Source: Trichoplax sp. H2 (lineage: Eukaryota). Taken from it: a DNA stretch of 64,000 nucleotides. This document shows, one piece after another, positions 32,348-64,000 of this stretch (position 1 is the first letter of the stretch; the number at the start of each line of letters is the position of its first letter). The DNA lies in assembly GCA_003344405.1 (NCBI GenBank), contig NOWV01000018.1:372001-436000 (forward strand), written 5' to 3'. A program made the translations under genes and the position numbers. The notes below the pieces were generated by a model. That model did not search any database. It was not told where the DNA came from and was given only the letters and a program-made list of their open reading frames with translations.

Positions 32348-32367
32348 NNNNNNNNNNNNNNNNNNNN
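32348..32367. other. Assembly gap (20 N)
   Basis: Run of n characters. Confidence 1.
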
Positions 32368-40000: not shown

Positions 40001-42049
40001 GAATTTCTCTTTATTCCTACTCTGTTGCTCTTTCATTGTCATCAGTGACATTGTCATTCTTATTAAAAATTGATGGCATACAGTTGTTGATGATGAAAAG
40101 GTTTAAATAGTAACTTTCCATGAAAATTAGCTCTTAAATTGATCGATTTCCATTTATTTATGCTAGCTAATATGACATAAAAATCTTTACTGTATTAAAA
40201 AATGGATACCGTAACATTTTAATCGATACTCTTATTTTATCTATATCTTGCTTTTACCTGCTATTATAAGGTTAATCGTAGGAGTGCGATAGGAAGTAAG
40301 AGATAAAACATTTCAAAATCTAAATGTTGCAGGCATAGATCAGTAAAATATCTTTATCGCCTCTCTTTCAATTGATTTATAGGTATTAATCGACAATATT
40401 GATTGATATTTTATGATATTGGCCTTTCCGTGTTTACAGATTAGAGCTTCACTGGAGAAATACTAGCAAGGAAAAAGGTAAGCTAACGTTCATAAACAAC
40501 GCATCCGCTTCTTTTACACAAGATGTTTTAGTAAGTATATTGCCTACTGTAATAATGGAAAGAGAGATCAAAAACTTGCCACTATAATCAGTTTCCAAGC
40601 TACGGTATTCTTTAATATGCTCTATACGTATTATTATTTTGATGATATTATACGAAGATAAATGATTATGATCGCGATGATACTGACAGTATTTAGAAAA
40701 TAGATATCAATCTTTTGACAAAGCACACTAGAATCAGCTTTATGCTATAAAAATTTATATTAATAGTAAATCACTAACAAGCTTGGAGCAACAACTATCA
40801 AAGACTTTACACGAAATACAGGTACTTTGATAGAACAGCACTTGATTTTGGGGCGATTTTAACGGTATCAATAATAACCCAATTGCTGCCATAAAATTGA
40901 TTCAAGTGTGCTTCTTTGAGGGGAGGAATAGCCTTACTTTCTATGCTAGTAATTGCTAATTTAGCAATATCCATGGAATGAATAATGATAAAACAGAGCA
41001 TTTGAGAGTAAAAACAGAATGATAGACCAAGGTATTTCCCTTCTTGCAATGATCATGGTTTCAGATTATATTCGCCATATACTACGTCTCCGAGTATACA
41101 GAAAATATTTGCAATTTTTTATTTCATTTCAGTTACTAATCTTAACATGACGTGGTCAGAAATTAACTACTGATTCCATGAATCAGATTTCACTTTCATG
41201 CATAAATATGATTCATTTTATGTTCTTTAACAGTCATCAATTCTATGAATTACGAAATCACGATTACACCTAGGAGATTGTCGAGCGAGGCAGAATATTC
41301 ATATCAGTGATAAGAGATTCTAGAAGTACAGAATTCATCAACTTGAGTCAAGTAGCAAGTCAGAATTATGAACGAATTTTACCATCAGTTATAGGGGTTT
41401 GCGTTTAGGCTGGAACTAAATATATAAATTAGCTTAACGTTTACATTGGATATTTATATTGATACCGGTAGAGAGGGATTCTAGATGCAATAAAGTCATG
41501 TACTTACACCTAGTTGAAGGTTTATGTTAGTATTAGGTAGATAAATAGATAGATATTAAGAGGACTCTATTAACACTACAATCATTTGCTTATAATATAG
41601 TAAGTAATCGGAAACATAGGCAAAGTGCTATCTACCTACAAGATTCAAGCGGCTAGTCTGTTCAGATTTTACCAGAAGCACACATTTATGTTTTTCAGAG
41701 TCATATAAATAGTTAGGAGAAGCTAAATAATTTCATAGATTTCTAGCCAACGGTACTTATGGATACTACTAAATTTCACGACATTGATGCTTCCTAAGAT
41801 ATACTTATATGATTAGAGTTTTAGGAAGGATGACTCAACTATATCGGTTGTTTCATGTAAATAAAAGTAAGTATTCACTCTATATAGTTTCGTATGCAAA
41901 AGGCAATCTGTATAAATTCTTAGCAATTACGTATATTAATACTAAGAACCCAAGCGAAGAAAGGATAAGTAGATGATACTGTTGATAGACTAATTCCTCA
42001 TAATATTACTAGGTGAATATTTTTCTAATATTTTACCTTTAGTAGTACT

Positions 42050-45350: not shown

Positions 45351-45576
45351 TGTTTAATGTACTCAGCGAATTCCGTAACATTTGCCCCATGACAGTTTTA
45401 GTCATCAAATTGATATACAATAAGTAACTATGTTTGACATTAACAGCACATAGAAAAACAAGCTAGATGTATGATCCACTATCGGAAAGTTTCAAGTCAC
45501 CTATCATTAAAGCCTTTTGTTCTAAATTCTATACAATTATCGTTTTCTGATAAATTAGATGAAGTTAGCGTGTAAA

Positions 45577-48500
45577 ATGAAATGGATCTCTTTGGTAGCT
45601 TTATGGATTTGGACTACGATAACTTCAGGTAGCGTAATCTACCATTATTTATGCAAAACTCTTGAATATTTTTAGGTTAAAAATACAAAATCATCTGATA
45701 TAGTGCTATAATAATTATAACGCTTAACTCCTACACAAGAATGAACACTGAAATAATCTCATTAGCATGAAAAAATTAGCTTACGTATTCTTTCTTAATT
45801 AGGTAATGCGGAAAATTGTCCCCAATACTGTTTGTGCTTGCAAGGTCTTATTTCATGTCAAGATGCTCGAACAAGCACGGTTCCAGTCAGCAATGTGACA
45901 CGTCCAGATGTATTAGTTCTGTAAGTGATTCAAAAAGGCTTTTCTTAGGTATTTTCTAGCTTCAATAGATCATAAAGGTCCTTTTCTAGTATCATTTAAT
46001 ATAGACTAGATTTGATTTTTGTAAAAGCTTTAGTTATCCTGTCTCTGATTAATTTTTCGATGACAAACCAAGTTGATAATTCTGAAACACGGCTGAGTTG
46101 TACAGTATACGAATATTCCGACATTAATATTCGCATTGTATTTAATACTCTCGCTTAATACCTCCCCTTCTTTGTACTTCTACATTCTTCAAGATATTTG
46201 CTACTTTTATATGTGGCATATACAAATAATAATTAATTGCTGATATAGCTATTTAGATAGTATATAGATACTTCAGTTGGATAGCTATTCCTTCCGTGGC
46301 TTTAAAATTTTACAATTTCTATTAGTTGATCCCGCTTAGAAGCGTATCCATAACATTTTTACAATTATACAACAATTTAATAATTTTTTGCCTCTATAAT
46401 ATCTCCTAGATTCTATAATGGAACTTCTGTTAGATCAATCAAAGCACAAAATTTTATCAACTACCCTAATTTGTTAAACATGTAAGTACCATAAAAAAAT
46501 GAAATACTATCTACTCGCCAACTTTTATGATCTTTTGTTATTTTGAGAGGAAGGATTTGATATCCTATGTATACTCGTATTTTATAAGGAATCAGCTCAC
46601 CTTTTTTTCCTATATTTATAAAGATATTTATCTGCAAATTTTTATTTTTTTGGATATCTCAGTTAACTACTACCCCAATTTAGGTATAGTATACGCATAT
46701 ACATTGCGCAGATTAGTTAGTTATGTAACTTTATCATTTAATTGAGATACTGGTCGGTTATACAACTAATACCAATTTATGCATAGTATAGCTTACCGTA
46801 TTTTGAACGAAAGGTTAGCTATCTCAATTAGAAGCCTGGTTACCGAATTACAGTTGCATAGTAAACAGGGATTAGCAAGATTTAGAAATCCTTGATGGTA
46901 AAGTAGATTACGTTTTCCTATAGAGTATCTTAGTTCATTAGGCGGTGCCATTTTTTGTATATATAACTATTTTGTAGCTATACGTATCAAGTACAACTAG
47001 CTTCCTTTAATCCTTAATTCGAGTTTAATATTGAAGTCAATTTATTTCCTATCACACCATAACTAGCTACCTTATTCAGTTACAAAAGTTCTATATAATT
47101 TTTTTATAATTATTGTATAGAAGGTCAGCAATCGGTAGTCATTTTATTCTCTAATTGCAATTGCATCCGGAGTAATTTGCGATTTGTATCTCAGTAAATT
47201 GTACAGGCTCATGTATAGCTAATAAACTATAACAAATATATATGCTGGTGTAATTATTTCAAATCAATCAAATCCTTGAAAAATAAAATTTTTATTTTGC
47301 TTTCTTAAGAGGCTATACTCAATCGAGCTAAACACTCGCTGCAAATATCCACTTAGAGTGGATATCAATATTTTTTTAAAATAAGCCGAAGAGAGTAAAT
47401 CATTAAAGGCATTAAAGATATGAAAGCTATAGTAGAATGGAATAATATTATTTAGTTCTTGTTCGTAATACTGTAGATCATTCTCATTATTACTAGAATT
47501 TTTGCCCATAATGCCATCGAGGTCATTGAGCCAAATGCTTTCTGTGGATTAAACGGACTTCGGAATTTGTATGTATGATCTTGAGTTAAATTAAAAAATA
47601 ATCAATTTTCTAAGACAAGCTATCATACTGCTACGGTATTAATCTCAGTAAATTAAAGAATAGTCGGCGAGAAGCGCTCTTATTTTGCGACTTCATCTGA
47701 TCTTTTACTATCTTGTATGATTGCTATCGTGGTGAAGACGATTAAATTCCAATGGCTTGAAGCGGATTAACAATGACACTTTTGCATGTTTACCTTATTT
47801 AAAGATCCTGTAAGTTGGAGAATATAACATTAAAGCAGTGTAGTTTTAATTATTATTAGCTTATAATATTGCTACTTCTACCGTACCCGATGTAAATCGC
47901 TTGGTTGCAACATTTGAATAGCCAATGAAGTTTATTTCAATCTTGATAGCCTTAAAATTAGCTTATGATCCGATATTGCGACTGATTTATGGCTCATTGG
48001 AATATAAATCTATTTTTTCTCCTATAGCAATATGGATTATAACGATATCGATGCGATCGAATCGCGAGCACTGTGTGGACTGAAAAATCTAGAGACCTTG
48101 TAAGGCGTTCTTAGAAACTTGTTGCCAATGTAAAACTTTTCCATTCCAAAAATGCATTCAGATAGCTTGATTTAGACACAGAGAACTCCTGATACATAAT
48201 TTATTGCATCCTTATTTATCTAAAGAATGAATTGATTGAAATGCTTGTTAATTGATTGGTCCTTCTTTATGGATTTACGTAGGCATTTAACTAGCAATAA
48301 TCTGAAATCCATACCGCAAGATACGTTTTCTTGCCTAACGACATTAAAATTTCTGTAAGTGTTTGTAAATAAATATTTGTACGGTAATACTATGTATGTC
48401 TGATAGTGACTACGTAGATTATAAGACTGGTTAAAGTCAAATATCTATTCTTTAACTAGAATCAATCAATTAAAATAAAACTTATTAAACGCATTCCATG

Positions 48501-51500
48501 CACATATATATAAATTTTATTACTATTGTTTTCAAGATTAGAACTACTGTACATTTCATAAACGATTTGTTTCTGGCAACTCGCAAGATTATGCCAGCTA
48601 CATTTTATGATTCATAAAATGAGTAATATTCATGGTTTTGGGTTATGCAGAGCTATGCTTGATAGTCAGTGATTTTAAATAATACGTACAATGTAGTTAG
48701 CAACTCTGATCGAAATTATCTAACCAGTGTTATAATTTTAATTTCATAAACTCGTAAATAAAAATTTCCATCGATTTTACCTCCTAAAGAACGTCAATCG
48801 TATTACATACATCGATAGAATTTTATTTAAGGAATCGAATCGTCACCTAAGTCTGACAAGCATTAATACAATTCAATTGTTTGCAGATATTTAGATTATA
48901 ATGGCGTAGGAGTAATTGATCCGAAGATGTTTTGTGGACTGAATTATCTAAAGACATTGTGAGTACAATTAACGTTTCTTCTGTTGTATCGCTCCTATTT
49001 ATCGGAGAATTAGGAAAATGAATTAATTTTAAACTGATGAGATAAATGACATTTCTAGCTCAGTGATGATGATATAGCTAACCCATTTTGTCCATTATGG
49101 ATTACGTTTTCGTACCTTTGAATAGATCTCTTACTGGTAATCAAATTAAAAAAGTATCGAACGAAACTCTGGCATATTTAGATTCATTGACAACTCTGTA
49201 AGTTAAAATAGGACCACGAGAATATAGTGACACTAGTGGAAAAAAGTTACTATAGTCGTGTAGATATGCTTCGTAGATCCGATATCTGATGATTCACAAC
49301 GACAGAATAAGAGATAGTCATAATGAAATTATGATTACATTCTAAGCTGAACTAATATAAATCTGCCTAAAGTTCTGAAAATACTTTATATTTTATGACA
49401 TTTCCTGGGATTTTAACTATATTTGTACTTCTCTTTTAAACCGTTTAGGAATTTAGGCTTTAACGATATTGATACATTAGATAATAATCCATTTTGTGGC
49501 ATAATGGGCTTGCAATTTCTGTAAGTTGCATTATAAAATTTTTGTATGATCAAAAAGAAATACTATGTGCAATTAAGAAATTAATTCATATCAACGTTAA
49601 TTCAATTTTAAACATTTTCTAATTATAATTAATTTCTTCAAATTCTAATAGTCAACTAACCAGTAACAAGATAAAAATTTTACGCAATAGAAGTTTGACA
49701 TGCCTTCAGTCATTGCTGTTTTTGTAAGTTGTAATTTGCTATTTGGAAATTTATATTTTTATCCTTTGATTTTATACAAATTCAGTAGTAAATATTCATA
49801 TTAGTCATCAATATGGCTTATTTACACGTACATGCTACCATAGCTATGATTGCCAGTCTTATTATCTGAATGGGGAAAACAAGCTCAATCAAGCTTTTAA
49901 CTAATAAAATTGTAAAATCTTGCATAACTATTTTAGACATATTAATTAATTTTGTTTATTAATGTTTTGATCATTAAAATAAGATGTAGCAATACTTTTA
50001 CATGCTAGAGTAAATATTTTACGCAATTATAGAAATATTATGATAGCTAGTTCCAAATTATGGCCCATTTTTACTATTGATGCTGAATAGAGCAGTTATA
50101 ACATATTTTCTTTTTCCTTTTTTTAAACTTGGATCTGAACGAAAGATCTCTTGATCATAATTCGATCGATACTGTTGAAGAAGATACATTTTCAGGATTG
50201 CGACAATTAATCAAATTGTAAGTTTACTGACGAATTATTCTACTATTGGATATCGGTTCTTTTGCTAACTTAGAATTAGTAACAGCGTATCTTGCTGCTA
50301 TTCTTATTTATACGATTCAATAACATTATGACTATTTTTAAAATAAAATAGCAACTAATTGAATTTATACTGTACAGATAGCCATATAACATTGGTATTT
50401 AATACGGCAATTTCTTATATTATGACTGATAATAATAATTATAGTAAATATGATGAGTTCTCTACACTGCTGTTAGTTTATTTAGTTATAACTCACAGCA
50501 TTAGCTAGCTTTACCTACATCAAACCAGTATGAAAGGTTTTTATGTTAAATTACAAATTATCTGCTCAAACTACACCTAACTTTTACTTGAATTTGCGTT
50601 ATTTGAAGAGATTTATCAGCGAATCTTTTAAGGAGGGTACCGTCAAGCTTTTTTAGAGATCTCACATCATTGATATATTTGTAAGTATAATAACTACATA
50701 ACTAAATTCAGTAAAACTAAATATAGCAATTTACGTAGTATCATAAAATAGATCCAGAGCAGTGATGACGGTTAAGATTTAAATATAAAGTTCATGACTA
50801 TTTGTGTTTTAATCATGGACTTTGTATCCTTATTGTAGGGATCTCGATTATAATCTTATCGAAAGCATTGAGCCAAAATCCTTTTGTGGAATCAATCGGT
50901 TGCAAACTTTGTGAGTTAATACGATCATTTAGAAGAACCTTCAAATTCCAGTACATGATTTCAAACAATAACTGATTAATATTGAGGTAATAAATGCATT
51001 AATTTGCTTTTTCCCAATAATCGCAATGATTAGGCTCTTAAATGGCAATAAAATCAAAGAAATAAAGTTGGAATCTAGTTTGGCCTGTCTATCTTCGCTA
51101 CATACCTTGTAAGAAATTTTTCTTGTACTATAACTGAAGATATTTAAGTAAATATCCTAACGTTTCACAATTTATGCCTCTTTTAAGCCAATGAATGCAG
51201 TAATACTAAAATTATCTTGTAAATGCTAGCCGATCATTCGCTGATTCTAGTTTTGTCACACGGCATCAATCAGTTCTTTGTTGTTCATGTACCCTTTCCA
51301 TGATTGAGTTCATTTCTTACCTTTACTACTACGTAATATCACCATGTTAAACAGTACACAGCGAATATATATACAAATACTAGTATTAGCTGTGTCGATG
51401 GATTGTTAAAATTTACCTTTTAGCTACAGATACTGATGGGCAAAATTACTCAATCAATGATTTATTTGTGATTGGTTCTATTTACATCGGGTTGCTTTTT

Positions 51501-54500
51501 CTATTCCTATAGAAATCTTCAGCACAATTTTATAAGCAGAATAGATTCTCGGTCTTTTTGTCATTTAGATAAACTAGCTCATCTGTAAGTCTTGATTTAT
51601 TATTGTCTTATTAACTGTTAATACCAATTATTTGGGGGATCATTAATAGCAGTCATATCCTTAATCAACTCAGAAAACAATTGTTACAAATATGTAGATA
51701 GCATCGACTGATAATTTTTTCATATTTGTATTTGTAAGGTTCCTGCAGAATAATTTTTTAAGCAAAATAGATTCTGGAGATTTTGATTGCCTTCCGCAAT
51801 TAAAGACATTGTATGTAGCTTGCAATCAATCTATAAGATGACTTAGCTGGTTCAATTATTAACTTTATCAGCGCTGTAAATTTTATATTGCTTTACTAAT
51901 ATTCTGGCTTACGCATTTAATAATTAGGCGTTTATCATTTAACTCGATAAATACAATAGCTGCTAATTCATTTTGCGGAGCCCAAATGATACAAGAACTG
52001 TAAGTAAAAGCCAATTTTATTATTTCATGTTCTATCATACTTAATATGACGGTGTGCTTGATTCTGGGATCCAAGTTAGTTTAGCAGACTAGTCAACCCC
52101 TAAATTAGCCTTTCATGTATCTTCTTAACTGTCCTCGCTAGATTACTGGAAGGAAATGAATTAAAAGAACTACACAATGATAGTTTTGCCTGTCTTTCAT
52201 CTTTGACGAACTTGTAAGTTTCTAAAATCAATTAGATGGTTAGCCATAGATTTCTTTAGTTGAAGTAGAAAGCTGTGGTAGTCAACAGAAATTTTGATGA
52301 TAACATCTGTGTTAATTAATGAGCGAATACACATCTTTTAGTACAAAATATCCGACATATAGCGCTTTCATTTAAAATATATGCAGAACGAACTATTAAT
52401 TTCTCTAGCTGGGTGTAGATGATGAATATAATCGACATATTTCAAGCAATATAGATTACCTAAATTTAAGGCAAATAATAGCTCATAAACTTACAAATTA
52501 GAGACATTGACTTCGCCAAGTTGGAAACAATCCATCCAAGGACATTCTGCCCATTATCAAGTATCGTAGATTTGTAAGTCATTAATCGATTTCTATCTAC
52601 CCTAAATGATGATCATAACATTTTAATATCAGTACGGGATACAATTGGCCTACTATAATATTCAAATGATACATATTAGGCACTTGGAAGGTAACCGTTT
52701 AACAGAACTTTGGTATGATAGCCTCGCATGCCTAGGATCCATTACAGGATTGTAAGTAGTTGTATAAACACGTTCGCTATCTATCAACAGCTTGTATTTT
52801 AACTGCCGTCACTTGCTAGATCGCTGAACGGAAATAATATTCAAGAGCTGCCACCGAGGAGTTTTGAAACATTAATATCCTTGAAAACGCTGTAAGACAG
52901 AAATTTTTGTAATATTTCGCTATATTCTGCCATGAATCGCTAACACTCCAGATCTATGTCGATTAACATTATTAACGTAAAATATTTATAAGGAACTAAC
53001 TATTCTGAGCGTACCCAACTATTAAATTTTCGTATTGGAGTTTTCATCATAACCATTTCCTTCGTCTTCATGTCGTATTTAATAACGTAATTGTAGCCAT
53101 TAGCGCGTTGTAAAATATTTGCTTACTCTGACATGCCATAAAATATACCAATATATTTGATATAGCTACATATCAAAAAGTTATAGAAATTTCTTAGTTA
53201 GAACAAAATACTTATAATAGATTGAGAGCTAGCGAAACAGATCTAAAATTAAAGCTGCGATAAACTACTAATTTTTGGCTGATATTTTTAAATAGGGAAA
53301 TCAGTAACTGCGAACTGACTGTCATAAATGAATATCAATTTATTGGTCTTATTAGTTTGGAGAAACTGTAATTGGATTAAACGTTTATTATATATATATA
53401 AATTATATTTAGATTCTCGGCGCTTTACCCAGACTATAATAAAATGTTAGTGATGCCTTAATAACGTGACTTAATAATCATTTATTCAAATAAATACTAG
53501 GGTATTAAGGTCTAATAATATCCATACCATTTTGAAGACAGCATTCGACGGACTGGATGCATTGCAACGTTTGTAAGTTGGTTTGGATATTAAATCTTGT
53601 GCAGCGTTTAATAACATTATAGTAAATAAATACTTTCGAAATATATTTCATTTTGATGTTATAACTTCATTCTGTAGGAAATGGATTCTAAAAATATTCT
53701 TTGGATCATTTAACAGTATACTTTTATTGCAATTAGAGATTTGACTGACAACGCATTATTTGCCTTAAACTCGACAACATTTCAAAATTTAACTGCGTTG
53801 CAGGAACTGTAAGTTACCAAATACCAATTACTACTCGTGTGCTGTAATTTCAACCCAAAGAGTTAAGCAACCATTGTATAAGCATCTTTACCCGTACAGA
53901 AATACTATAGCATAATTGAATATAATAAATTTAAACCCATTACAAATAAATATTACTTACAGAAAACCACTCAATGAGTAGATTTAATATTGAAATAGAC
54001 GAGTCTCGGTTTACGATACCGGATAATTACTATAATAAAACTTGAAGTAATCATTGTAACTTTGCTATAAAATTTACTGTCTTTGATAAGTTTTAGCTAA
54101 TTGAAAATATAACTGCTATGATTCGCGATTAGATATTTAGATGAGAATACCATTAAGAACTTGGAAGCGAAACAATTTGAAAACCTATCTAATTTACGAT
54201 TTTTGTAAGTTTACTCTAAAGCATTTAGGATTTACGATATATTTGATACTAGATATGGTATCGTAAGTGCGGTATATTCGTTTAGAAACTATGTTCTAGT
54301 TTAATATTTGATGGAATTTGCTTAGTTCTGCGATGTCTATGAAAAATTCGAATAGATATCGCAAGAGTAGGTGTTTCATTTGTAAGCTATACACTTGATA
54401 TCAGAAATGCAATTGCGAAGATTAAATACTCAATCTTCTCTAATATACTATAGGATGTATGTCAACAAAGAATTTGAAATTTTATAAAAATACAAACGTT

Positions 54501-57500
54501 ATTTTCTAAATTTCGATAATATTTGTGTAGTGTTTAGGACTAGCTACATAGCTAAGAGTAAACAGTTGTGCGTAGCTGTCCATGACAGACGTTGTAAAGA
54601 AATTCTTTTAACGCAATATAATAATAGATGTTAAATTCCATGCGTATAAATAAAATTTATTTGAAGATGAATCTCATCGTTTGCTGCATATTAAACTTTA
54701 ATAAAATTACTAAGTCTATGGTAATTATTCAATATTAGATCGTTAAAAACTAATGGAATCGTAAGTGTGCATCCTGAAGCATTCTTTGGATTGCATAATC
54801 TCAAGAGATTGTAAGCATCGAATGATTATTATTATCTCTAGATTTAACGTTGAATCCTACATTACCATGTTGGATATTATTACTTACCAATTAATAAAAA
54901 TTACATCTGTAAATATCATCTATAATTAAAATCTGTATTTGTTTCAGCCTTTACTTCTGTGATATTTTTTAGACAGCTCGATGGCAATCGTATCATCAAT
55001 ATAAAGGATTTAAAGTTACCGGATGCTTTGACATTGGATATTTTGTAAGCAAAATTAATTAGGAATTTAGTCTACAAAACACTAAAATTAATTCGATAAA
55101 GTAGGTAAGGTTATAAATTTGACTGATATTTGAAAGTAAATTTAGCGTTAATGTCAGCGAATTTATATATTGCTCATCTTTGTTATGAATAGTAACAGAA
55201 TATATCGTTGCTTTTAATTGTGGATATAGAAGCTTATCCAAATCTAACTTGCAAAATCTTGCAAAATTTGAAACTCTACTGAGCAATGTAACGGTGAAAA
55301 TAATGTAAGCACCATCGAATTCACACGCATTTTATAATTCCTAATATAACTAGCAAGATAATGTCGACGAACTATATTATAATATATCAAAATATCAATT
55401 ATATCTCTTCATTTTCAAGGCACACTGCTCCATGCTCGGTTTAATCTTAATCTAGTATAAGTTAATCTTTTTTTTTCTCTATCTTGTCACTTATTTCAGG
55501 GATTTATCCGATAATTTATTTCATGAACATACTAATTTTCACTTCTATGATTATCAATCCTTGTAAGTTTGTAAATATCTAGTTGATAGCTATATATTTC
55601 ACGTATTTTAATCAGCAAAAATGGCCCATTTAATAGATTAGAACCGTTGTTACTCAATCTTACTAAAAATTATCTACCTGCAAGTAAAATTTTGTTCTTG
55701 TACTTTTATCGTGCATATAAGAGAAAGTGTGGAGAGCTAGCGCCATCTTATAAGAATTAATTGTAGTTTAAAGTTAAATGCTTAGTATAAGTGCAATTTT
55801 TTTACAATTTTTTCTCTAGAAATTTATCCTATAATTTCTTACAAGAAGATTTTCCCCTGAATTTCTCTAATATTCCATCGCTACGTCATTTGTGAGTAAA
55901 TTCTAGCGAATCGAAAATAAAATAGCTAGAAAATTCAAACTTTGGAGTAGGATGTGCTTAAAGTTAAAGTATAACATTTATGTACGGTAAAATGTAATCT
56001 TGACCTCCAATCATTCTGGGTATTATTTTCATGCAATTTATGGAAGAGTTAATCATTGCTAGTATAGTGTTAGTCTGTTAGTAATCATTCTCAGATTCAG
56101 TCTTGGATTTTTGCAATAGCATGTGCATGAGGTATATGTTATCCGTTAGAGTCAATTTTTTAAAGACACCGCCATGCACAACTTGCAACATTTTCATGAA
56201 GGTATTTACCACTTAAAGCCAACGTTTTCGTTGTATTATCTTTTATTTACAGAGATTTAACTGGAAACCGATATCGACACATTAATGAACGTTTCATGGC
56301 CGTATGGAAAGGATCAATAATGCTATCAATGTAGGCTTAGGAAGGGTGTAATCTATTTTGGTTAAATGAATATGATATTCTTTATAGCAATCCAATTTAA
56401 GGATATTCAATGGAAAAAGTAGTGGATCTAATTTAAAAGACCACAATATCATTCCTTGACTACTTTAATTTTAATTTAAGTAACATTTCATCGAATTCAT
56501 TGGAATCGATTGAAGCTGATACATTTAAGTCTTTGACTGAGCTCAATTCGTTGTATGTATCCTTCTTTGCGTTACATTTTTCTTATTGAATTTATATCGA
56601 AAAGTATTGATAAATACAAACGGATATTGCCTAATAGATATTTGCGAAACAATTATTTGACCAAAATGACCTTTATACGACCTTTATCTAAACTCAGTAT
56701 CCTGTAAGTACTTATTCTCATTATCAATTTGGAATCACAGTTTTATTAACATATAAACTACTTCAAAATGTAGTCAAACATATGTTTAGACAGACAAATG
56801 GCGGTATTAATGTACCGATACTGCAGAATATTATATAACTTTGAATCAGATATTTAATACTGTGCTTATTCGATGATTAAATTATACCTATTAGCATTCA
56901 TAAATTGGAATAATTAGAAGTTATTAAACTTCAGAGAGGATTAACTGATGGTATAATTATTAAGATAACATTATATTTAAATTATTTATAGATCGCTGGG
57001 TAGAAATAATTTTAAAACATTGTATAAAGAGGATTTCATGAACTTAACTGATTTGCGAGAACTGTAAGCTACAGCAATCGCTAAACCTGTTTCTAATTTC
57101 CTTAGTTTAAAGTTATCAGCTATATTCTATAGATTTGTGTTTGATGCCGCTCGAATGCTTCTATTAAATTTCCGACTTACTTTAGTTACTTGGATAACAA
57201 CCGAATTGGATACCTACGTGGAAACTATTTTGAAAATATCCAGCTAACTACTCTGTAACAGAAAATTTTCTTATGAATGTAGCTACGTCATGATTTAAAT
57301 TAAGGAAATTAATTTTAAATCGTGCTATGGGGATACTAGGTTTCTGGAAAATAATATGATATCGTCAGTTGTTGATGTTTTTACCAATTCCTCATCGCTA
57401 AAGACTTTGTAAGCTTCACATAACTTATACTAATTCTACTGGGTATTTTCAATACATCTATAGACAAGTGTAGAAATTTATAATTTCATGCATATATATT

Positions 57501-60500
57501 GGATAAGTGTAGATGAAAGAATCCATCATTTATTCCTTCTTCATTATGCTATTATAATGAAACGGATCTTAGATTTATTTCTATTCATTACTATACTTTG
57601 GCTAAATCGTGGTTTTAACAACTACTTCAATAATACTAATTGTTTATCAAATAAGGAACTTAAATAGCAACCTGATAGAGAATATTGACAATATCTTCCA
57701 TGAATCAATGACACAAGTGAATGCTATGTAAGCATTCAAGAATTTATTGCATTGATAGATCAAGATGAAGTACTCTAACTAATTTCGACATGATATAGTT
57801 ACCTACGCGATAACAGGATCAAGTCATGGAGTGGTGGTCCGTTTCGTCACTCTCCTATTCTGGCTATACTGTAAGTTTGTCTTGCCTTCCAGCTACGGAA
57901 TATCACTCTTAATAATTGATTCACTGGAATAAAAACTATTTAATTCTTTTGATTAATTTTCTACTTGGCACTGTCCAAAAACATCTGAATCTTTATAGAG
58001 ATCTTAGCGAAAATCTGTTGACGGAAGTTAGCGATCTGGGACTTGCTTCTATGAGTCAATTGTAAGTATATATATACATATACTTATCAGTTATATGATA
58101 TTAAAATTATAGTATCAAACTTAGACTATGCTATTAAAAATAAGCAACGATTTCAATAAGAATACTATGATAATCTATCAAATTTTGATGTTCTTGCAGT
58201 AATATAATTAATGAGATAGCGCTCTGTATCATTTTCGGTTCTATATTTTATTCATAAATATTCTACTTACAATTGAAGAAATTTTCTCTCCTACAAATTT
58301 TAGAGATCTGCAAGGTAATGAAATTAATTACTTATCCTGCCGTGGATTACCAACTGCCTTAAAATCGCTGTAAGCAATATCAAGAATTAGTTACTAATTT
58401 CAATTTGAGACTAAATCAAGACTGATAACATTTCTATATGATATAATATTCGGATTTAATGAAGTTATTGGACATTTTAAATTTTTATATCAGTAATTTG
58501 GCCTACAACAACATTAAGAAAATTGACTCTGATTGCGACACCTTATTCCAACAAATAAATGAATTGTATGATTTTCAGTTTTAGAATTGTTTTATTTTCA
58601 ATGATGCCAATACTTGCCTAATTTTGAAGTTTATTTTGAATTTGTAGCGACATTAGTTTTAATAACTTAGTTCCCAACGGCATGAATATTAAAGAATCGG
58701 TACTTGATAAACTGAAGCAAATCCTAGTCTTGTACGTACAGCATGTTTAATTTATTATCCTCATGCTATTGTAGTCAATCACTTGGCAATATTTTCCAAT
58801 ATGGATATAGACTTGACCTAGTAAATTTTAAATTCTTGCTATCGGTTTGTTATTTTTGAATCAGTTTAATTACTATAGTTGGATTGAGAAAGATTTAGGG
58901 AAAGTAATAACTAGATAGTAACTTACTCTTGATAAATTTTTAGATCAGAAGATTAATTAAATTGACTTAAAGTAGTTGAAAGTTCTATAAACGTCATGAA
59001 TATATTCTGAATAATGTAATATTCACTTTTTTGTATAGCTAAATAATACTAATTTATATTCATTAAGGGTGATCTTCTTCTAATATTATTACCTTATCTT
59101 AATGAAATATGTTCATGGGCTTATTCCTAACTAAAGAAATATCGCTGGCAATAATATTACGCGTATACGGCATAAAACAACCTTCAATCAATATCGGCGA
59201 TTGTAAGTTCATCATCGGAATTTTATAATGTCATTTCAAACTACGGTAACAAGTATTATATTTAAACTATGATAGTTTAAGTCACTTATTTCCTTACACA
59301 GTAGATATAACTCTCATTTCCAATAAATACATCGAAAAGTTTCTATATTCTAGCCAAGAATAAACTTAAAATACGCATATACAGTTGAAGAGTATAAAAG
59401 CAGTTTGATGCAAAGGGCTAGTCCAAAAATTTTAATGGTTGCGCATCCTACTGCAGCATTCCCTCCTTACTTAGCCAACTGCGACTTTTTGTAAAGCATA
59501 AAGTTAGATGATGTATTTTCGATATACTGACATTAAGCTGAGAAGATATATGCTTTGTAATAGCACAGTTTATAGTAGCTCTTTCTTTTAACTAAGGATA
59601 ACTTTTTAATATCTTGAGCGTAATACTTTTGATATACTGAAATTAACCTCGAAAATTTAGGATTTACACCAGAATTCTGTAGGTATTAAGCTTCTTTTCC
59701 TAATGAACTATGGTCTTTATAATACAATAATTAGAAACATTAGCTATAATCCGATGACACTGACAGAACTATCTGAATTTATGGGAAGAGGAACAAGCTA
59801 TCTTATGATGATGTAAGCTATTTCCATGCGTTAATACGAATGAGTTTTTGTTGCTTTCATGTCGTATAGAATCTAAACCTACGGTATTTATTTTCTTGCA
59901 GTTAGATTATAATAGCAACTACTACTCTATTTTAGCCGCTAAATGATTTAAATTTAGTTCAATGAATCAATTTTCAGTTCCTTGTATCTTCAACAAGATC
60001 CTTCCATTAACAGCTTTTGTGGCAAAATTTGCATCAAAGATCGACTATAAACGTTAAATACGATAAAATATGAAGCGAAATTTACTAGTATGTAATTTGC
60101 TTTTACTGTATTATTAATTTAATATTTTGAGTGTCATACTGCAGTAGTGATAGACTCGAAATGCTGCAGTAAAATTTTTACTTTACAATCAGGTAATAAA
60201 TAGAAACGTAATCCGATAGAACTGTAAATTGGGCAATATCTAAAATGCTAATTTGAGAAAATTTAAACACAATCTATCAGAATATTTAATCCCTTCAAGA
60301 CTAACTGCTTTAATAGAAAATGGATATATTCAGTTACTCGTTAAATTTCACTTTGAAGCTTGACATTATCTTCATTGATTAATGATTTTTGGTAAATTGG
60401 ATTTCAGCTGATTAAGAGCGTTCATTTTGCTATTTCAGTGACATCAGCAGTTTAAAATTCGAACAGTTACCTGATGAATATTGGCGATTCTATCAAATTC

Positions 60501-63185
60501 TTAGAATCTTGTAAGGCATAACACTCATAGAAGATTTTTTAGTTAAAATATTTACGAAAGGATTTCGTATGTCGACATAGGATAAATAAAATCACGTCAT
60601 TCGTCTAGTATAATTTTACTCCTGGTCATTACGGAATTACAATTTACTTACCAGAATTAACTCTCGTCCACTTGATTTCCGCTTAATTTAGGCACATTAA
60701 GGATAATGGTTTGAAGGAACTTAACTATGCTAATAGGACTAGATACGATAATAATGTGGTTTTAGAATTGTAAGTTATTCAGTTGATTCTATTATTTGCG
60801 TTGTATCGATTCCTGAATAGACAGTAATGATCTGGGATAGATATTACCTAGCTTATAGATGAATCTAAGCCTGGAATTTTAATATGGCCAATAAGAACAG
60901 TATAATTATCACCGAGCTAATTAGTTTATTTTAGCTATAGAAAGATAATAAAGATCAGTATACACTAGAAATCAACGAGGGTTGATCCTTCACGCAGAGA
61001 TCTTAATGGCTGCAGTTGTACCAGTATTCTTTTTCGATATGATCGATTATATGAAGATGCTTAATATCGACTGTTAAGATATGGATATATCAACAAAATT
61101 ATCGATGATTAAATTGTATACTGCATTTCATGGTCTTATTGATGAATTTAAACTATTCTTATCATTATTAATTGAAGAGACGTTTCAGGCAACAAAATGA
61201 ACAATTTCTTTTCCAGTATTGAAGCTCGATTAGTGTCCTTGGAAAAATTGTAAGCTCTAGTTCAAAGATTTTCTTTATACTTTTTCCGATTTAGGCTTTC
61301 TGTGAATAAAGAATATGTATTCTATCTATTAGTGACTCAGTAGTAATTTAGAATTTTATGTCTAAATTCTCTATTTTAAATACTATCTGAGATTTTAAAT
61401 ATGAATTACTCTCGATGGTTTAGAAATGTGGCAAGAAATGGAATTTCTGACATTTGTTATCGCAGCTTAGCAATCCAGTTTCCAGTTATTCAAATTCTGT
61501 AAGTTGGTTTTGTGTTAATTGTAATTAAGATCTTTTTCGTTCCTTTCACTCTCAGTCTAGTTATTAATAATAATGATAGAATAATGATAAGAATGCGTAC
61601 ACGCAATATTATAGCGATGCCAGGATGAATAAAATTGATCGTTTGCAAAGGAGATGCTTCAAAGGAATGGGAAAATTGCGAGTATTGTAAGTTAATTTAT
61701 TGATCAGCAATGGAAACGCTAAATTTCTAACTCAAACTAGGAATATCTTACAAATTGATCTAGTTGTGTATCCTCATATGCCCTTACAGTTTAGGAAAGT
61801 ATATTGAATATCACGAGAATACAAATTTATGCACACAGTTTTCAATTAAACTGTAACTTACAGTTAGTACTTGTAGTTGCCTTATAACATAGACTTTTCG
61901 ATTTTAAATTAATTTGAATGGTAATGTAAATTGGTCATGTATATCAGTATTATCACACTTACTAGCTATGACAGTTAGTTATTTCATTTTTAATATAAAT
62001 GACAGTATTTATTTAAATAATTAGACTTTTGCAAGACAATAACTTGGCATATGTTAGCGGAAAATCATTCTATGGTCCGCCTGAAATGGTCACAGTGTTA
62101 GTAACTACAGAAGTAAATGTAATAATGATTAAATTAGCAAGCACTAATCCTTTTTATCTTAATGTTGATATATTAGATTGACAAAGCGTGATTATCTTTG
62201 CTGTATGGTTCCCGCAAAAATTAAACTTTGTCAACCGAGTATGGGTTCTGACGATTTATCATCATGTGAAAATTTGTTGTCTCATTTTTCACAAAAATTA
62301 TTTATTTGGATTGTGGGTATCTTAGCTGTTGTTGGTAACCTACTCGTGTTTATTCAAAATCATTCCATTCGCAAACAGAAAAATAGCTTGGTTCCAATTT
62401 TTCTTATCAATAGTCTAGCTCTATCGGATCTCCTAATGGCGTTTTATTTGATAATTATTATTGTAGCTGATTTAGCTTTTAGCACTGGAGAGTATGGTCT
62501 GAATTCAGAAATATGGCTATCCAGTCCGTTTTGTTTAATAGCATGCTTTCTAGTTAACGCGTCTAGTTTAACAACTGTACTTTTGATGGTTACTATTTGC
62601 TCAGATCGCTATATTTGCTTGGTTTATCCTTTATCACCGAAAAGAATGAGTATTAAGACAGCACGCATAGTTGTCGTGTTCGTATGGATCTTATCGCTTT
62701 CATTTGCAGCAGCTCCGGTAATATCAAGTGCTAACATGCCAGGGTACCTTCGATTGTATACTTATAACAGCATGTGTATGGCTAATAATTACCAGATTGA
62801 CTACTATCGAGTTTGGATGATTTCTTATTTGTCCATAATATTTATTGCATGGGTAGCTATGACAATCTTATATATGCGTTTATTTATGACTATTCGTCGT
62901 AGCGGCAAGAATTTAAGAAGATCGACCGCAACTGACAATACAGTTATAGCGATACGCCTAGCATTAATTTTAATTTCTGATTTAATCAGTTGGGTTCCAT
63001 TCTACTATGTTAATTTGCATGGGTTGTTAACTTCTGGGCGTGTAGACGTAATAGCACTTCAATTTGTTGGTATATTTTCTTTGCCCATCAATTCAGCTAT
63101 TAATCCATATTTGTATACATTTACAAATATTGATATTATTAAGAAGTTTTTAGTTCGCCAGAAAACATTTAGCACTAAATCTTGA
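45577..63185 (+). CDS. Leucine-rich-repeat GPCR (LGR, type-C/RXFP-GRL101-like hinge and 7TM) with LRRNT and 48 LRR exons
   Basis: Signal exon 45577-45628 (MKWISLVALWIWTTITS). LRRNT exon 45803-45920 (CPQYCLC..LISC). 48 phase-2 exons of 63-84 nt, mostly 72 nt, from 46410 to 62096, each encoding xLxxNxIxxIxxxxFxxLxxLxxL. Terminal exon 62177-63185 with hinge LCC....C.P...DDLSSCENLL, GNLLV, SLALSDLLM, CSDRY, SDLISWVP and LPINSAINPYLY. Confidence 0.9.
62177..63185 (+). CDS. Terminal exon of the LGR: hinge plus complete rhodopsin-class 7TM
   Basis: 335-aa ORF preceded by the acceptor tattag|; seven hydrophobic helices, DRY and NPxxY motifs. Confidence 0.93.
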
Positions 63186-64000
63186 TGACTGCTTATTACA
63201 TTCCTCACTGGAACTAATCTTGATCAATGATAATGATTAAACAAATTTAGTAGTAGCTGGCATCTTTTCATTATATAATTTATTGTTTCATGCCTGTAGA
63301 TATGAGACTGAAGATACTTCTATCAACCTTATAATTTTACTACAACTTAAGGGATATCTAAAATTAAATATAACATTAGAATGTAACAGAAGCTAAATCT
63401 TCACGGGTATTGTAGTTGTGAGCAATCTAGCCCACACACATTTTTTAACAAGGCTTTATAATAATTTAGCCGAAATTTCGGCGATAAAGTGATAGATGTA
63501 ATAAAATATTAGCTTTAATAAAAATTCAAGTAATATTAGTACATGTTTACAAATCTACTGCTGATATAGATGTTCATACTGCTTTCAGGGAGATGAAAGG
63601 ATTTCATATCTATCGTTTCGGTGAAAGTCTTGAAAGATGAGTGTAAATATCTAATTAGATCTTATTTATATAGCGATGCTCAGTCGATACTCAAAATGCA
63701 TAGTTAAGACCCAAAGTAAGAGAATGACACTTAGTCAGTTAAAACTTTAAACTATAAATATCGTAAGGCTAACCTAAGTTCCTTCATGCAAGGTAAGTCG
63801 TCATGGTCTTTAAAGATTGCATCTAACTTCTGCGTCTGTAATAATGGTCAGAAGAGCAAGTTTAATCCTAAAACTGATAGTTGCAAAATTAGCTTAAAAT
63901 ACTGTATTTCGAGACGGACCTGTTCCTTGGTACCACTATAAATTGCATTACGGGAAATATCTGTAAGACTCCAGCTTAACGACGGCATCTAAAAACAGAT

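What the first reader, a model, noticed from the sequence alone, without database searches (positions are those of the whole stretch)
45577..63185. Giant LGR with 48 LRRs, each on its own symmetric phase-2 micro-exon
Seen: I count 48 LRR exons between an LRRNT exon and a type-C hinge/7TM exon, giving an ectodomain of roughly 1150 aa. Established: vertebrate glycoprotein-hormone receptors and RXFP1/2 have about 9-10 LRRs, LGR4-6 have about 17, and type-C receptors usually begin with LDLa modules. No LDLa is visible here; an LRRNT sits in its place. Inference: a solenoid this long would exceed a full horseshoe and suits a large or polymeric ligand (microbial, matrix or self-recognition) better than a small peptide hormone.
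Basis: partly seen in the sequence, partly recalled or inferred. Interest (0 to 1): 0.8.

Follow-up and report, generated by a model that had tools for sequence, protein, structure and literature searches.

The report
Placozoan GPCR with 49 leucine-rich repeats
This is a real, expressed Trichoplax gene for a cell-surface receptor whose sensing arm is built from 49 leucine-rich repeats, each on its own tiny exon; it is an extreme member of a receptor family already reported as expanded in this animal, and the public gene model misses most of it.

Summary
On the + strand, 52 coding exons (45559/45577 to 63185) give one 1573-aa protein. All 49 LRR exons are phase 2 on both sides; 35 are exactly 72 nt. 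Spliced RNA contigs from four public runs carry these junctions and link cap to 7TM, so it is one gene. A 5'UTR exon at about 40383-40477 has an in-frame stop, so no LDLa module lies upstream.

The window is Trichoplax adhaerens. The public model TRIADDRAFT_54151 (429 aa) is a truncated, mis-spliced version.

The 7TM is most similar to RXFP1 (type C) among solved structures. In a tree it sits in an LDLa-free clade with the Trichoplax sequences. A 2022 review already reports 41 placozoan-specific LGRs with unusually many LRRs (example: 34). This is therefore a new, extreme member of a known kind.

The ligand is unknown. G-protein signalling after binding of a large ligand is inferred, not shown. 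Interest is moderate.

The parts
40383..40477 (+). 5'UTR exon; its 5' end is open and the donor GT is at 40478
   Evidence: A loose end before 45557 appears in 4 of 4 runs. Its 30-nt consensus maps uniquely to 40446-40475. An in-frame TAG lies at 40442-40444.
45559..45628 (+).
   Evidence: The length of a contig in run X6 fits 68+95 nt upstream of exon 2.
45803..45920 (+). Exon 2: Cys-rich N-terminal cap (CPxxCxC...C), 118 nt; leaves in phase 2
   Evidence: Joint 45920>46410 is seen in 4 of 4 runs. Pfam gave only a sub-threshold TILa hit and no LRRNT hit.
46410..46481 (+). LRR exon 1 (72 nt)
   Evidence: Relaxed scan; joint 45920>46410
47497..47568 (+). LRR exon 2 (72 nt)
   Evidence: Strict pattern; contig length fit
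47738..47809 (+). LRR exon 3 (72 nt)
48028..48099 (+). LRR exon 4 (72 nt)
48283..48354 (+). LRR exon 5 (72 nt)
48887..48958 (+). LRR exon 6 (72 nt)
49126..49197 (+). LRR exon 7 (72 nt)
49449..49520 (+). LRR exon 8 (72 nt)
49652..49723 (+). LRR exon 9 (72 nt)
50146..50217 (+). LRR exon 10 (72 nt)
50609..50680 (+). LRR exon 11 (72 nt)
50839..50910 (+). LRR exon 12 (72 nt)
   Evidence: aligns to paralogue P0019
51034..51108 (+). LRR exon 13 (75 nt)
51513..51584 (+). LRR exon 14 (72 nt)
51739..51810 (+). LRR exon 15 (72 nt)
51928..51999 (+). LRR exon 16 (72 nt)
52142..52213 (+). LRR exon 17 (72 nt)
52502..52573 (+). LRR exon 18 (72 nt; Asn position holds Ala)
   Evidence: Relaxed scan; donor 52573 appears in table 5c
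52680..52751 (+). LRR exon 19 (72 nt)
52820..52891 (+). LRR exon 20 (72 nt)
53296..53367 (+). LRR exon 21 (72 nt; Cys at the Asn position)
53501..53572 (+). LRR exon 22 (72 nt)
53737..53808 (+). LRR exon 23 (72 nt)
54133..54204 (+). LRR exon 24 (72 nt)
54739..54810 (+). LRR exon 25 (72 nt)
54973..55044 (+). LRR exon 26 (72 nt)
55230..55304 (+). LRR exon 27 (75 nt; the acceptor could be 55233, giving 72 nt)
   Evidence: Relaxed scan. In the 3452-nt X9 contig, exons 3-31 total 2085 nt. That fits the 75-nt form and not the 72-nt form.
55500..55562 (+). LRR exon 28 (63 nt)
55820..55891 (+). LRR exon 29 (72 nt)
56253..56330 (+). LRR exon 30 (78 nt)
   Evidence: Relaxed scan; contig pieces in X6, X9 and X11 (table 8)
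56481..56552 (+). LRR exon 31 (72 nt)
56638..56703 (+). LRR exon 32 (66 nt)
56992..57063 (+). LRR exon 33 (72 nt)
57186..57254 (+). LRR exon 34 (69 nt)
   Evidence: joint to 57340 (table 5c; read)
57340..57408 (+). LRR exon 35 (69 nt)
   Evidence: joint 57408>57656 in 4 of 4 runs
57656..57727 (+). LRR exon 36 (72 nt)
   Evidence: Joints on both sides in 4 of 4 runs
57799..57870 (+). LRR exon 37 (72 nt)
   Evidence: Joints on both sides in 4 of 4 runs
57999..58061 (+). LRR exon 38 (63 nt)
   Evidence: Joint 57870>57999
58304..58369 (+). LRR exon 39 (66 nt)
   Evidence: Joint 58369>58494
58494..58565 (+). LRR exon 40 (72 nt)
   Evidence: Joints on both sides
58648..58731 (+). LRR exon 41 (84 nt, irregular repeat conserved in paralogues)
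   Evidence: Joints on both sides
59137..59202 (+). LRR exon 42 (66 nt)
   Evidence: Joints on both sides
59735..59812 (+). LRR exon 43 (78 nt)
   Evidence: Joints on both sides
60439..60510 (+). LRR exon 44 (72 nt; lacks the Asn; missing from the public model)
   Evidence: Relaxed scan; joints on both sides in 4 of 4 runs
60692..60769 (+). LRR exon 45 (78 nt)
   Evidence: Joints on both sides
61178..61249 (+). LRR exon 46 (72 nt)
   Evidence: Joints on both sides
61424..61498 (+). LRR exon 47 (75 nt; missing from the public model)
   Evidence: Joints on both sides
61615..61686 (+). LRR exon 48 (72 nt; missing from the public model)
   Evidence: Joints on both sides
62025..62096 (+). LRR exon 49 (72 nt)
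   Evidence: Joints on both sides
62177..63185 (+). Last exon: short Cys hinge (CC..C.P..SSCE.LL), intronless 7TM with DRY and NPxxY, short tail, stop at 63183-63185
   Evidence: ORF; Pfam 7tm_1 E=1.2e-23; RXFP1 alignment; joint 62096>62177

Best explanation
A single, intact and expressed Trichoplax adhaerens gene encodes a 1573-aa class-A (rhodopsin-type) GPCR of the LGR kind. From N to C it has a signal peptide, a Cys-rich cap, 49 'typical' 24-residue LRRs (consensus LxLxxNxIxxIxxxxFxxLxxLxx), a short type-C-like Cys hinge and an intronless 7TM with DRY and NPxxY.

It belongs to the placozoan-specific, LDLa-less LGR expansion. It is not a canonical type-A, -B or -C receptor.

The array has two parts. 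Units 2-19 are regular and show a two-repeat periodicity, with Cys alternating between positions 17 and 18. Units about 27-49 are irregular (21-28 residues) and colinear with the paralogues.

Inferred mechanism: a large extracellular ligand (a protein or polymer, identity unknown) binds the LRR solenoid, which is long enough to exceed one turn. The change passes through the hinge to the 7TM, which signals through a heterotrimeric G protein.

Each LRR sits on a symmetric phase-2 exon. This is the layout known from other LGR genes, and it explains how the array could grow by exon duplication without breaking the frame.

Shown: gene structure, splicing, expression as RNA, domain make-up and relatedness. 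Inferred: ligand size, solenoid geometry, G-protein coupling and possible disulfide pairs.
For: - Gene model: 52 coding exons, 4722 nt, no internal stop, all 51 introns GT..AG.
- Splicing: one search lists 15 joints, and 15 of 15 are my exon borders, each seen in 4 of 4 runs from four studies; 36 further joints were counted but not shown. The total of 51 equals my intron count.
- One transcript: one 3452-nt contig (X9) runs from exon 2 to LRR exon 45. Its internal distances fit the model (1149 nt exact; 2085 nt with the 75-nt form of LRR exon 27). Joints link on to the 7TM exon.
- No upstream coding: the 5'UTR exon has an in-frame stop.
- 7TM: Pfam 7tm_1 E=1.2e-23.
- Species and public model: 100% identity to T. 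adhaerens TRIADDRAFT_54151 over the last exon.
- Paralogues: colinear at 37-41% identity over up to 1170 residues.
- Solved structures: RXFP1 120.9 bits, TSHR 83.9, LGR4 34.5; the hinge aligns.
- Tree: the window lies in a clade of 12 (support 0.997) holding all 6 Trichoplax-named sequences. It also lies in an LDLa-free clade of 40 (support 1.0).
- Repeat consensus, Cys pattern and 18 N-glycosylation sequons.
- Period-2 identity in units 1-20: 0.45-0.49 at even offsets against 0.38-0.40 at odd offsets.
- AlphaFold model of paralogue P0001: pLDDT 79.5, 30 regularly spaced strands, then 7 helices. Best whole-chain matches are LGR4 and TSHR; the best ectodomain match is TLR8 (TM by target 0.61, rmsd 6.8).
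- Published context: PMC9545775.
Against: - No ligand, coupling or cell type is known, so the mechanism rests on family analogy.
- The runs were laid as assembled contigs. Contigs drop rare isoforms and cannot give expression level. 36 of the 51 joints were not displayed to me.
- The full spliced protein could not be given to Pfam, the fold tools or the database searches. Its geometry is inferred from a paralogue at about 37% identity.
- The cap exon did not match Pfam LRRNT.
- TM6 has SWxP instead of CWxP (read).
- The review's authors call the hinge of these receptors 'their own', whereas I find it aligns well with type C.
- My tree has no labelled type-A or type-B references and is arbitrarily rooted.
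Confidence: 0.8

Rival explanations
1. It is a pattern-recognition or environmental sensor. With its roughly 40 paralogues it would form an LRR-based recognition repertoire wired to G proteins, detecting microbes, food algae or self/non-self. This would fill the role TLRs play elsewhere.
For: - Placozoans lack canonical TLRs and couple other recognition domains (CTLDs) to GPCRs (PMC6321704, passages read).
- The family is greatly expanded in T. adhaerens (PMC9545775).
- The N-terminal array length varies between paralogues, while the C-terminal module is colinear.
- The paralogue's ectodomain model resembles TLR8, TLR13 and TLR3.
- C. elegans FSHR-1, an LGR, acts in innate immunity (recalled, not read here).
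Against: - There is no evidence of diversifying selection, inducibility or microbial binding.
- Any long LRR solenoid will resemble a TLR ectodomain.
- The immunity paper does not name LRR-GPCRs as candidates in the passages I saw.
Confidence: 0.25
2. It is an endocrine receptor for an endogenous protein hormone (cystine-knot glycoprotein-hormone-like or insulin/relaxin-like), as for canonical LGRs, with extra LRRs.
For: - It is closest to RXFP1 and then to the TSH, FSH and LH receptors among solved structures.
- The hinge motif is shared with those receptors.
- LGRs as a class bind protein hormones (PMC9545775, PMC11087051, passages read).
Against: - It has no LDLa module, which is characteristic of relaxin-type receptors (PMC11863921, passage read) and, as recalled, needed for RXFP1 activation.
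- It has 49 LRRs, against the 7-9 given for types A and C in PMC9545775.
- It lies outside the LDLa-bearing clade.
- Forty-one paralogues far exceed the known placozoan hormone candidates (PMC9545775).
Confidence: 0.15
3. It works without G proteins, as a scaffold or adhesion receptor. Vertebrate LGR4-6 work this way, as recalled.
For: - The best whole-chain fold matches of the paralogue are LGR4 structures.
- A very large ectodomain suits cell-cell or matrix contact.
Against: - By sequence the 7TM is far closer to RXFP1 and TSHR than to LGR4 (120.9 and 83.9 bits against 34.5).
- DRY and NPxxY are intact.
Confidence: 0.1
4. It is an artefact: two adjacent genes (a secreted LRR protein plus a GPCR), a pseudogene, or a mis-assembled repeat.
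For: - The public annotation gives only a 429-aa protein.
- Loose ends at intronic places 57323 and 60376 in three runs are unexplained.
Against: - Spliced contigs bridge the cap exon through to the 7TM exon in four runs.
- The frame is open through 52 exons.
- The exons are diverged from one another (at most 61% identity), and no tandem DNA repeat is found. A collapsed or expanded assembly is therefore unlikely.
Confidence: 0.03

Closest known systems
Placozoan-specific LGRs of Trichoplax adhaerens (41 of 46 LGRs; example Tadh-LGR-15 with 34 LRRs; PMC9545775 and the thesis it cites)
   Same: Same species, no LDLa, very many LRRs, a short Cys hinge, and a 7TM clade with the Trichoplax paralogues.
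   Different: 49 LRRs against the 34 given as the example. I could not see whether this locus is among the 46, because Supplementary Table S2 is closed. The public database model of this locus has only 429 aa.
Type-C LGRs: RXFP1/2 (C1) and GRL101-like receptors (C2)
   Same: Best sequence match among solved structures (RXFP1 6.9e-34). The CC..C.P..SSCE.LL hinge is shared with LDLa-bearing hits such as P0004 and P0037. NCBI names the H2 paralogues 'GRL101-like'.
   Different: It has no LDLa, CUB or CTLD modules. It has 49 LRRs, where PMC9545775 gives 7-9 for type C. It sits in a separate, LDLa-free clade. The 7TM has no introns, whereas RXFP-type genes have introns in TM2 and TM5 (PMC11863921).
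Type-A glycoprotein-hormone receptor genes (FSHR, LHCGR, TSHR)
   Same: The gene layout is the same: a run of small exons of 69-81 bp that carry the LRRs, then a large final exon (PMC4536197; that this exon holds the 7TM is recalled). The conserved hinge segment before TM1 aligns. That the vertebrate LRR introns are phase 2 is recalled, not checked here.
   Different: 49 such exons instead of about 7-9. The hinge is short and lacks the long type-A insertion.
Type-B LGR4-6
   Same: LRR cap plus a longer LRR array (16-18) plus 7TM. These are the best whole-chain fold matches of the paralogue model.
   Different: Weak 7TM sequence similarity (34.5 bits). Their hinge type is different, according to the review.
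Toll-like receptor ectodomains (TLR8, TLR13, TLR3)
   Same: A long array of typical 24-residue LRRs. The paralogue's roughly 30-LRR model superposes on TLR8 with TM by target 0.61.
   Different: No TIR domain and no single-pass membrane anchor; the output module is a GPCR. The array is about twice as long as the TLR8 array (26 LRRs, recalled).

Membership tests
LGR (LRR-containing class-A GPCR) | Rhodopsin-type 7TM domain | tested here: met
   Pfam 7tm_1 E=1.2e-23, 84.4 bits against a cut-off of 30.5
LGR (LRR-containing class-A GPCR) | LRR ectodomain on the same polypeptide, N-terminal to the 7TM | tested here: met
   Open frame through 49 LRR exons into the 7TM exon. Spliced contigs bridge them. 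Single exons give LRR_8 hits below the cut-off, as expected for 23 aa.
LGR (LRR-containing class-A GPCR) | Cys-rich hinge with the conserved C.P...C-E-x-L segment before TM1 | tested here: met
   Aligns to the RXFP1 and TSHR hinges. A regex taken from the LDLa-bearing hits matches.
LGR (LRR-containing class-A GPCR) | Cys-rich N-terminal LRR cap | tested here: inconclusive
   A CPxxCxC...C pattern is readable in exon 2. Pfam LRRNT did not hit, and the only match was a sub-threshold TILa hit.
Type-C LGR (RXFP / GRL101) | One or more LDLa modules at the N-terminus | tested here: not met
   The 5' exon is untranslated, with an in-frame TAG. The 1573-aa model has 0 LDLa-like motifs.
Type-C LGR (RXFP / GRL101) | About 7-10 LRRs | tested here: not met
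   49 LRR exons
Type-C LGR (RXFP / GRL101) | Short type-C hinge and a 7TM closest to RXFP | tested here: met
   RXFP1 is the best solved match, at 120.9 bits against 83.9 for TSHR. About 40 residues separate the last LRR from TM1.
Type-C LGR (RXFP / GRL101) | Groups with LDLa-bearing receptors in a 7TM tree | tested here: not met
   The window lies in an LDLa-free clade of 40 (support 1.0). The 34 LDLa-bearing sequences appear only in the next clade, of 111. The rooting is arbitrary.
Placozoan-specific LGR expansion (PMC9545775) | T. adhaerens gene grouping with the other Trichoplax LGRs outside types A, B and C | tested here: met
   100% identity to TRIADDRAFT_54151. Clade of 12 containing 6 of 6 Trichoplax-named sequences, support 0.997.
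Placozoan-specific LGR expansion (PMC9545775) | Unusually high number of LRRs | tested here: met
   49 LRRs, against the published example of 34
Placozoan-specific LGR expansion (PMC9545775) | Listed among the authors' 46 receptors | not testable with these tools
A full-text search for TRIADDRAFT_54151 found 0 papers.
Toll-like receptor | Intracellular TIR domain behind a single membrane pass | tested here: not met
   The C-terminal exon is a 7TM with a short tail ending at 63185.

The most novel reading that the evidence does not exclude
This receptor and its roughly 40 paralogues are a GPCR-coupled, LRR-based recognition repertoire for microbes, food or self/non-self in an animal that has no Toll-like receptors. 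The two-turn solenoid, with its disulfide-stapled di-LRR module, would bind polymeric ligands. The one-repeat, same-phase exon layout would let array length evolve quickly, and possibly vary by exon skipping.
Probability: 0.15. Interest if true: 0.8.

Novelty: new member of a known kind. Interest (0 to 1): 0.4.

Why it matters
- **Gene model.** It corrects a badly truncated public model (429 aa against 1573 aa). Micro-exon LRR arrays of this family appear to be under-called in placozoan annotations: both closest named Trichoplax sp. H2 paralogues also start inside the array.
- **Size.** At 49 repeats it is the longest LRR array on a GPCR among the sequences I examined. The next longest are about 37 and at least 35.
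- **Evolution.** It shows clearly how symmetric single-repeat exons allow a repeat domain to grow.
- **Function.** Placozoans have no neurons and no canonical TLRs but dozens of these receptors. Finding a ligand for one would bear on how early animals sensed large extracellular molecules.

Tried and rejected
- **Motif scan.** A plain LxxLxLxxNxL scan of six-frame translations showed no array, because the exon border cuts the motif. An exon-aware scan replaced it.
- **Tandem repeats.** Tandem Repeats Finder found nothing. The repeats are too diverged at DNA level, so recent duplication or assembly expansion is rejected.
- **Whole genome.** None is held for this window, so LRR exons could not be counted in paralogous loci.
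- **Earlier findings.** Three look-ups returned nothing.
- **Fuller database model.** No contiguous coding stretch of 40 aa exists in the array, so I dropped it. The 'longer' search with the 7TM exon found no protein identical to it among those of 588-2000 aa.
- **Very long hits.** Hits of 2000-3300 aa looked like possible giant arrays. They are CUB/LDLa/lectin-rich GRL101-like receptors with few LRRs.
- **LRR counting.** The HMM built from the 24-aa units merges neighbours and undercounts (37 hits for the 49 units). I used it only for the span, not for the count.
- **Loose-end sequences.** Those at 57323 and 60376 are not in the window and stay unexplained.
- **Literature.** Searches for cell-type expression or immune roles of placozoan LRR-GPCRs gave nothing specific.
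- **Isoforms.** Rare isoforms such as exon skipping cannot be judged from assembled contigs.

Full report
**What is there.** The window is AT-rich (about 30% GC) with short introns. The only long open frame in the region is 62169-63185 (+), and it reads as a seven-helix receptor. Pfam confirms 7tm_1 (E=1.2e-23).

A plain LRR motif scan of the six frames showed no array. Reading the DNA showed why. Each repeat lies on its own small exon, and the intron cuts the first Leu codon after its second base.

An exon-aware scan looked for AG, 63-84 nt open in phase 2 with an xLxxNxL start, then GT. Results:
- 44 distinct acceptors inside 45577-62177 on the + strand
- 1 in the rest of the + strand
- 3 on the whole - strand
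- 50 shuffles of the region: mean 0.8, maximum 5

A relaxed scan of the gaps added five degenerate repeats. Joining all exons gives an open frame of 52 coding exons:
- a signal-peptide exon
- a 118-nt Cys-rich cap exon
- 49 LRR exons (35 of 72 nt, 3 of 75, 3 of 78, 3 of 66, 2 of 69, 2 of 63, 1 of 84)
- a 1009-nt exon with hinge, 7TM and stop

All 51 introns are GT..AG, 68-1015 nt long with a median of 181. All 50 junctions from the cap exon onward are phase 2, and the split codon gives Leu in 43 of 50.

**Is it one expressed gene?** I laid the assembled contigs of four public runs from four studies on 45400-63300. One run is on record as RNA-Seq; the other three are guessed to be RNA.
- 51 joints were counted, which equals my intron count.
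- The 15 joints displayed are all exactly my exon borders (15 of 15), all GT..AG, each present in 4 of 4 runs. The other 36 were not shown to me.
- One 3452-nt contig (X9) runs from the cap exon to LRR exon 45.
- Its distance from that end back to LRR exon 30 is 1149 nt, exactly as in the model.
- Its distance across coding exons 3-31 is 2085 nt, three more than my first model. This fits the alternative acceptor at 55230 for LRR exon 27.
- Displayed joints then link LRR exon 45 through to the 7TM exon.

Intron-free joints show that this material derives from spliced RNA. Contigs cannot give expression level or rare isoforms.

**The 5' end and the LDLa question.** All four runs carry extra sequence in front of 45557. 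Its consensus maps uniquely to 40446-40475, at the end of an exon whose donor is at 40478. Read in frame across the junction, a TAG lies at 40442-40444, followed 12 codons later by the first ATG at 45559.

The upstream exon is therefore untranslated, and nothing precedes the signal peptide. The model contains no LDLa-like motif. With the 45559 start, the protein is 1573 aa. From Met 1 (signal peptide included) to TM1 it measures 1278 aa and carries 18 N-glycosylation sequons.

**Whose gene is it?** The last exon is 100% identical to T. adhaerens TRIADDRAFT_54151, a 429-aa public model. That model starts inside LRR exon 43 and skips LRR exons 44, 47 and 48.

The nearest other proteins are Trichoplax paralogues at 48-56% identity in the 7TM. 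An unnamed ENA fragment at 80% is probably the orthologue in another placozoan. No longer model of this gene appeared among proteins of 588-2000 aa.

Two Trichoplax sp. H2 paralogues, named 'GRL101-like' by NCBI, align colinearly with my model over 1170 and 980 residues at 37% and 41% identity. Unit by unit, LRR units 12-49 have aligned counterparts in one or more paralogues. Those database models themselves start inside the array, so truncation seems common for this family.

**Anatomy of the array.** The 35 units of 24 residues give the consensus LxLxxNxIxxIxxxxFxxLxxLxx, the 'typical' LRR class.
- Units 2-19 carry a Cys alternately at position 17 and 18, making 7 adjacent pairs. They may form inter-repeat disulfides; this is inference.
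- Nucleotide identity between exons in units 1-20 shows a two-repeat period: 0.45-0.49 at even offsets against 0.38-0.40 at odd offsets.
- The most similar exon pair is only 61% identical, and no tandem DNA repeat is detected. The duplications are therefore old and the array is not an assembly artefact.
- Units about 27-49 are irregular (21-28 residues) but conserved in order among paralogues. This suggests a conserved membrane-proximal module and a variable distal one.

**Relatives and type.** Among solved structures the best match is RXFP1 (6.9e-34, 120.9 bits). Then come TSHR (83.9), FSHR (75.8), LHCGR (71.7) and, far behind, LGR4 (34.5). The short hinge (CC..C.P..SSCE.LL) aligns with both RXFP1 and TSHR.

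The same hinge pattern occurs in LDLa-bearing GRL101-like hits. The 2000-3300-aa hits in the exhaustive search are such CUB/LDLa/lectin receptors with few LRRs, not long arrays.

I built a FastTree of 143 7TM regions: the window plus 142 of the 162 proteins held. P0155 was left out as identical, and the rest were dropped because fewer than 250 query residues aligned.
- The window falls in a clade of 12 (support 0.997) with all 6 Trichoplax-named sequences.
- It also falls inside an LDLa-free clade of 40 (support 1.0).
- LDLa-bearing receptors (34) appear only in the next enclosing clade, of 111.
- The tree has no labelled type-A or type-B sequences and an arbitrary root.

So the receptor is type-C-like in hinge and 7TM similarity, but it fails the LDLa, LRR-number and clade tests for type C.

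**What is already in print.** A 2022 review (PMC9545775; abstract and passages read) reports 46 LGRs in T. adhaerens. Two are type A, three are type C and none is type B. [quoted passage not shown] The example, Tadh-LGR-15, has 34 LRRs. The details are in a thesis and in Supplementary Table S2, which I could not open.

A full-text search for the locus tag found no paper.

The small-exon layout is the known one for LGR genes. The eel and human FSHR genes have a succession of 69-81-bp exons that carry the LRRs, then a large final exon (PMC4536197, passage read; that this exon holds the 7TM is recalled). That those vertebrate introns are phase 2 is my recollection and was not checked.

Placozoans lack canonical TLRs and attach other recognition domains to GPCRs (PMC6321704, passages read).

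**How it probably works.** DRY and NPxxY are intact, and TM6 has SWxP. The hinge segment that aligns with the TSHR and RXFP1 hinges is present.

An AlphaFold model of the paralogue P0001 was built from an 18-sequence alignment (pLDDT 79.5, pTM 0.56). It shows 30 evenly spaced short strands followed by seven helices. Its best whole-chain matches are LGR4 and TSHR. Its ectodomain superposes best on TLR8 (TM by target 0.61, rmsd 6.8 Å over 752 columns), TLR13 and TLR3.

TLR8's 26 repeats close a ring (recalled). If curvature is similar, 49 repeats would make nearly two turns and must spiral.

I therefore favour a large protein or polymer ligand bound along the solenoid, with the signal passed through the hinge to a G-protein-coupled 7TM. 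Only the parts list is shown; the mechanism is inferred. The rivals differ mainly in the ligand class: an endogenous hormone against environmental or microbial material. A further rival is that the 7TM does not signal through G proteins at all.

**Verdict.** It is a giant, LDLa-less, type-C-like LGR, and it belongs to a placozoan expansion already described as LRR-rich. It is best called a new, extreme member of a known kind, with a corrected gene model. Interest is moderate.

Noticed in passing
window 59735-63185 (+): The public protein model TRIADDRAFT_54151 (429 aa) starts inside LRR exon 43 and skips LRR exons 44, 47 and 48. One residue differs at a wrongly joined split codon (G for D). 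The two closest named H2 paralogues (P0001, P0002) also begin inside their LRR arrays.
   Followed up: yes
window 57342; also 52680 and 60964: All four RNA runs read C where the window has T at 57342. This changes Phe to Ser at position 2 of LRR unit 35. One run reads A at 52680. Three runs have an extra T behind 60964, which is intronic. These are strain differences or reference errors.
   Followed up: partly
window 57323 and 60376 (introns): Contigs in three runs follow the window into these introns and then continue with sequence that is nowhere in the window. The cause is unknown; it could be a structural difference between strains, a chimeric contig or a paralogue.
   Followed up: partly
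window 47497-52751 (LRR units 2-19): Cys alternates between repeat positions 17 and 18 in successive repeats (7 adjacent pairs), and nucleotide identity has a two-repeat period. This looks like a di-LRR super-repeat that may be disulfide-stapled. The same FC/xC pattern is visible in paralogue P0001.
   Followed up: partly
window 14066-16098 (+): Exons of an unrelated DENN-domain gene (uDENN, DENN and dDENN Pfam hits).
   Followed up: partly
window 2983-4959 (-): A Laminin_G_3 (concanavalin-like) domain ORF lies next to long Ser/Thr-rich, mucin-like ORFs. It is probably one secreted or surface glycoprotein gene.
   Followed up: partly
window 32348-32367: A run of 20 N, which is an assembly gap.
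   Followed up: no
protein P0028 (unnamed, 1604 aa): This database model contains two complete LRR+7TM receptors in tandem. It is probably two neighbouring LGR genes fused by annotation.
   Followed up: no
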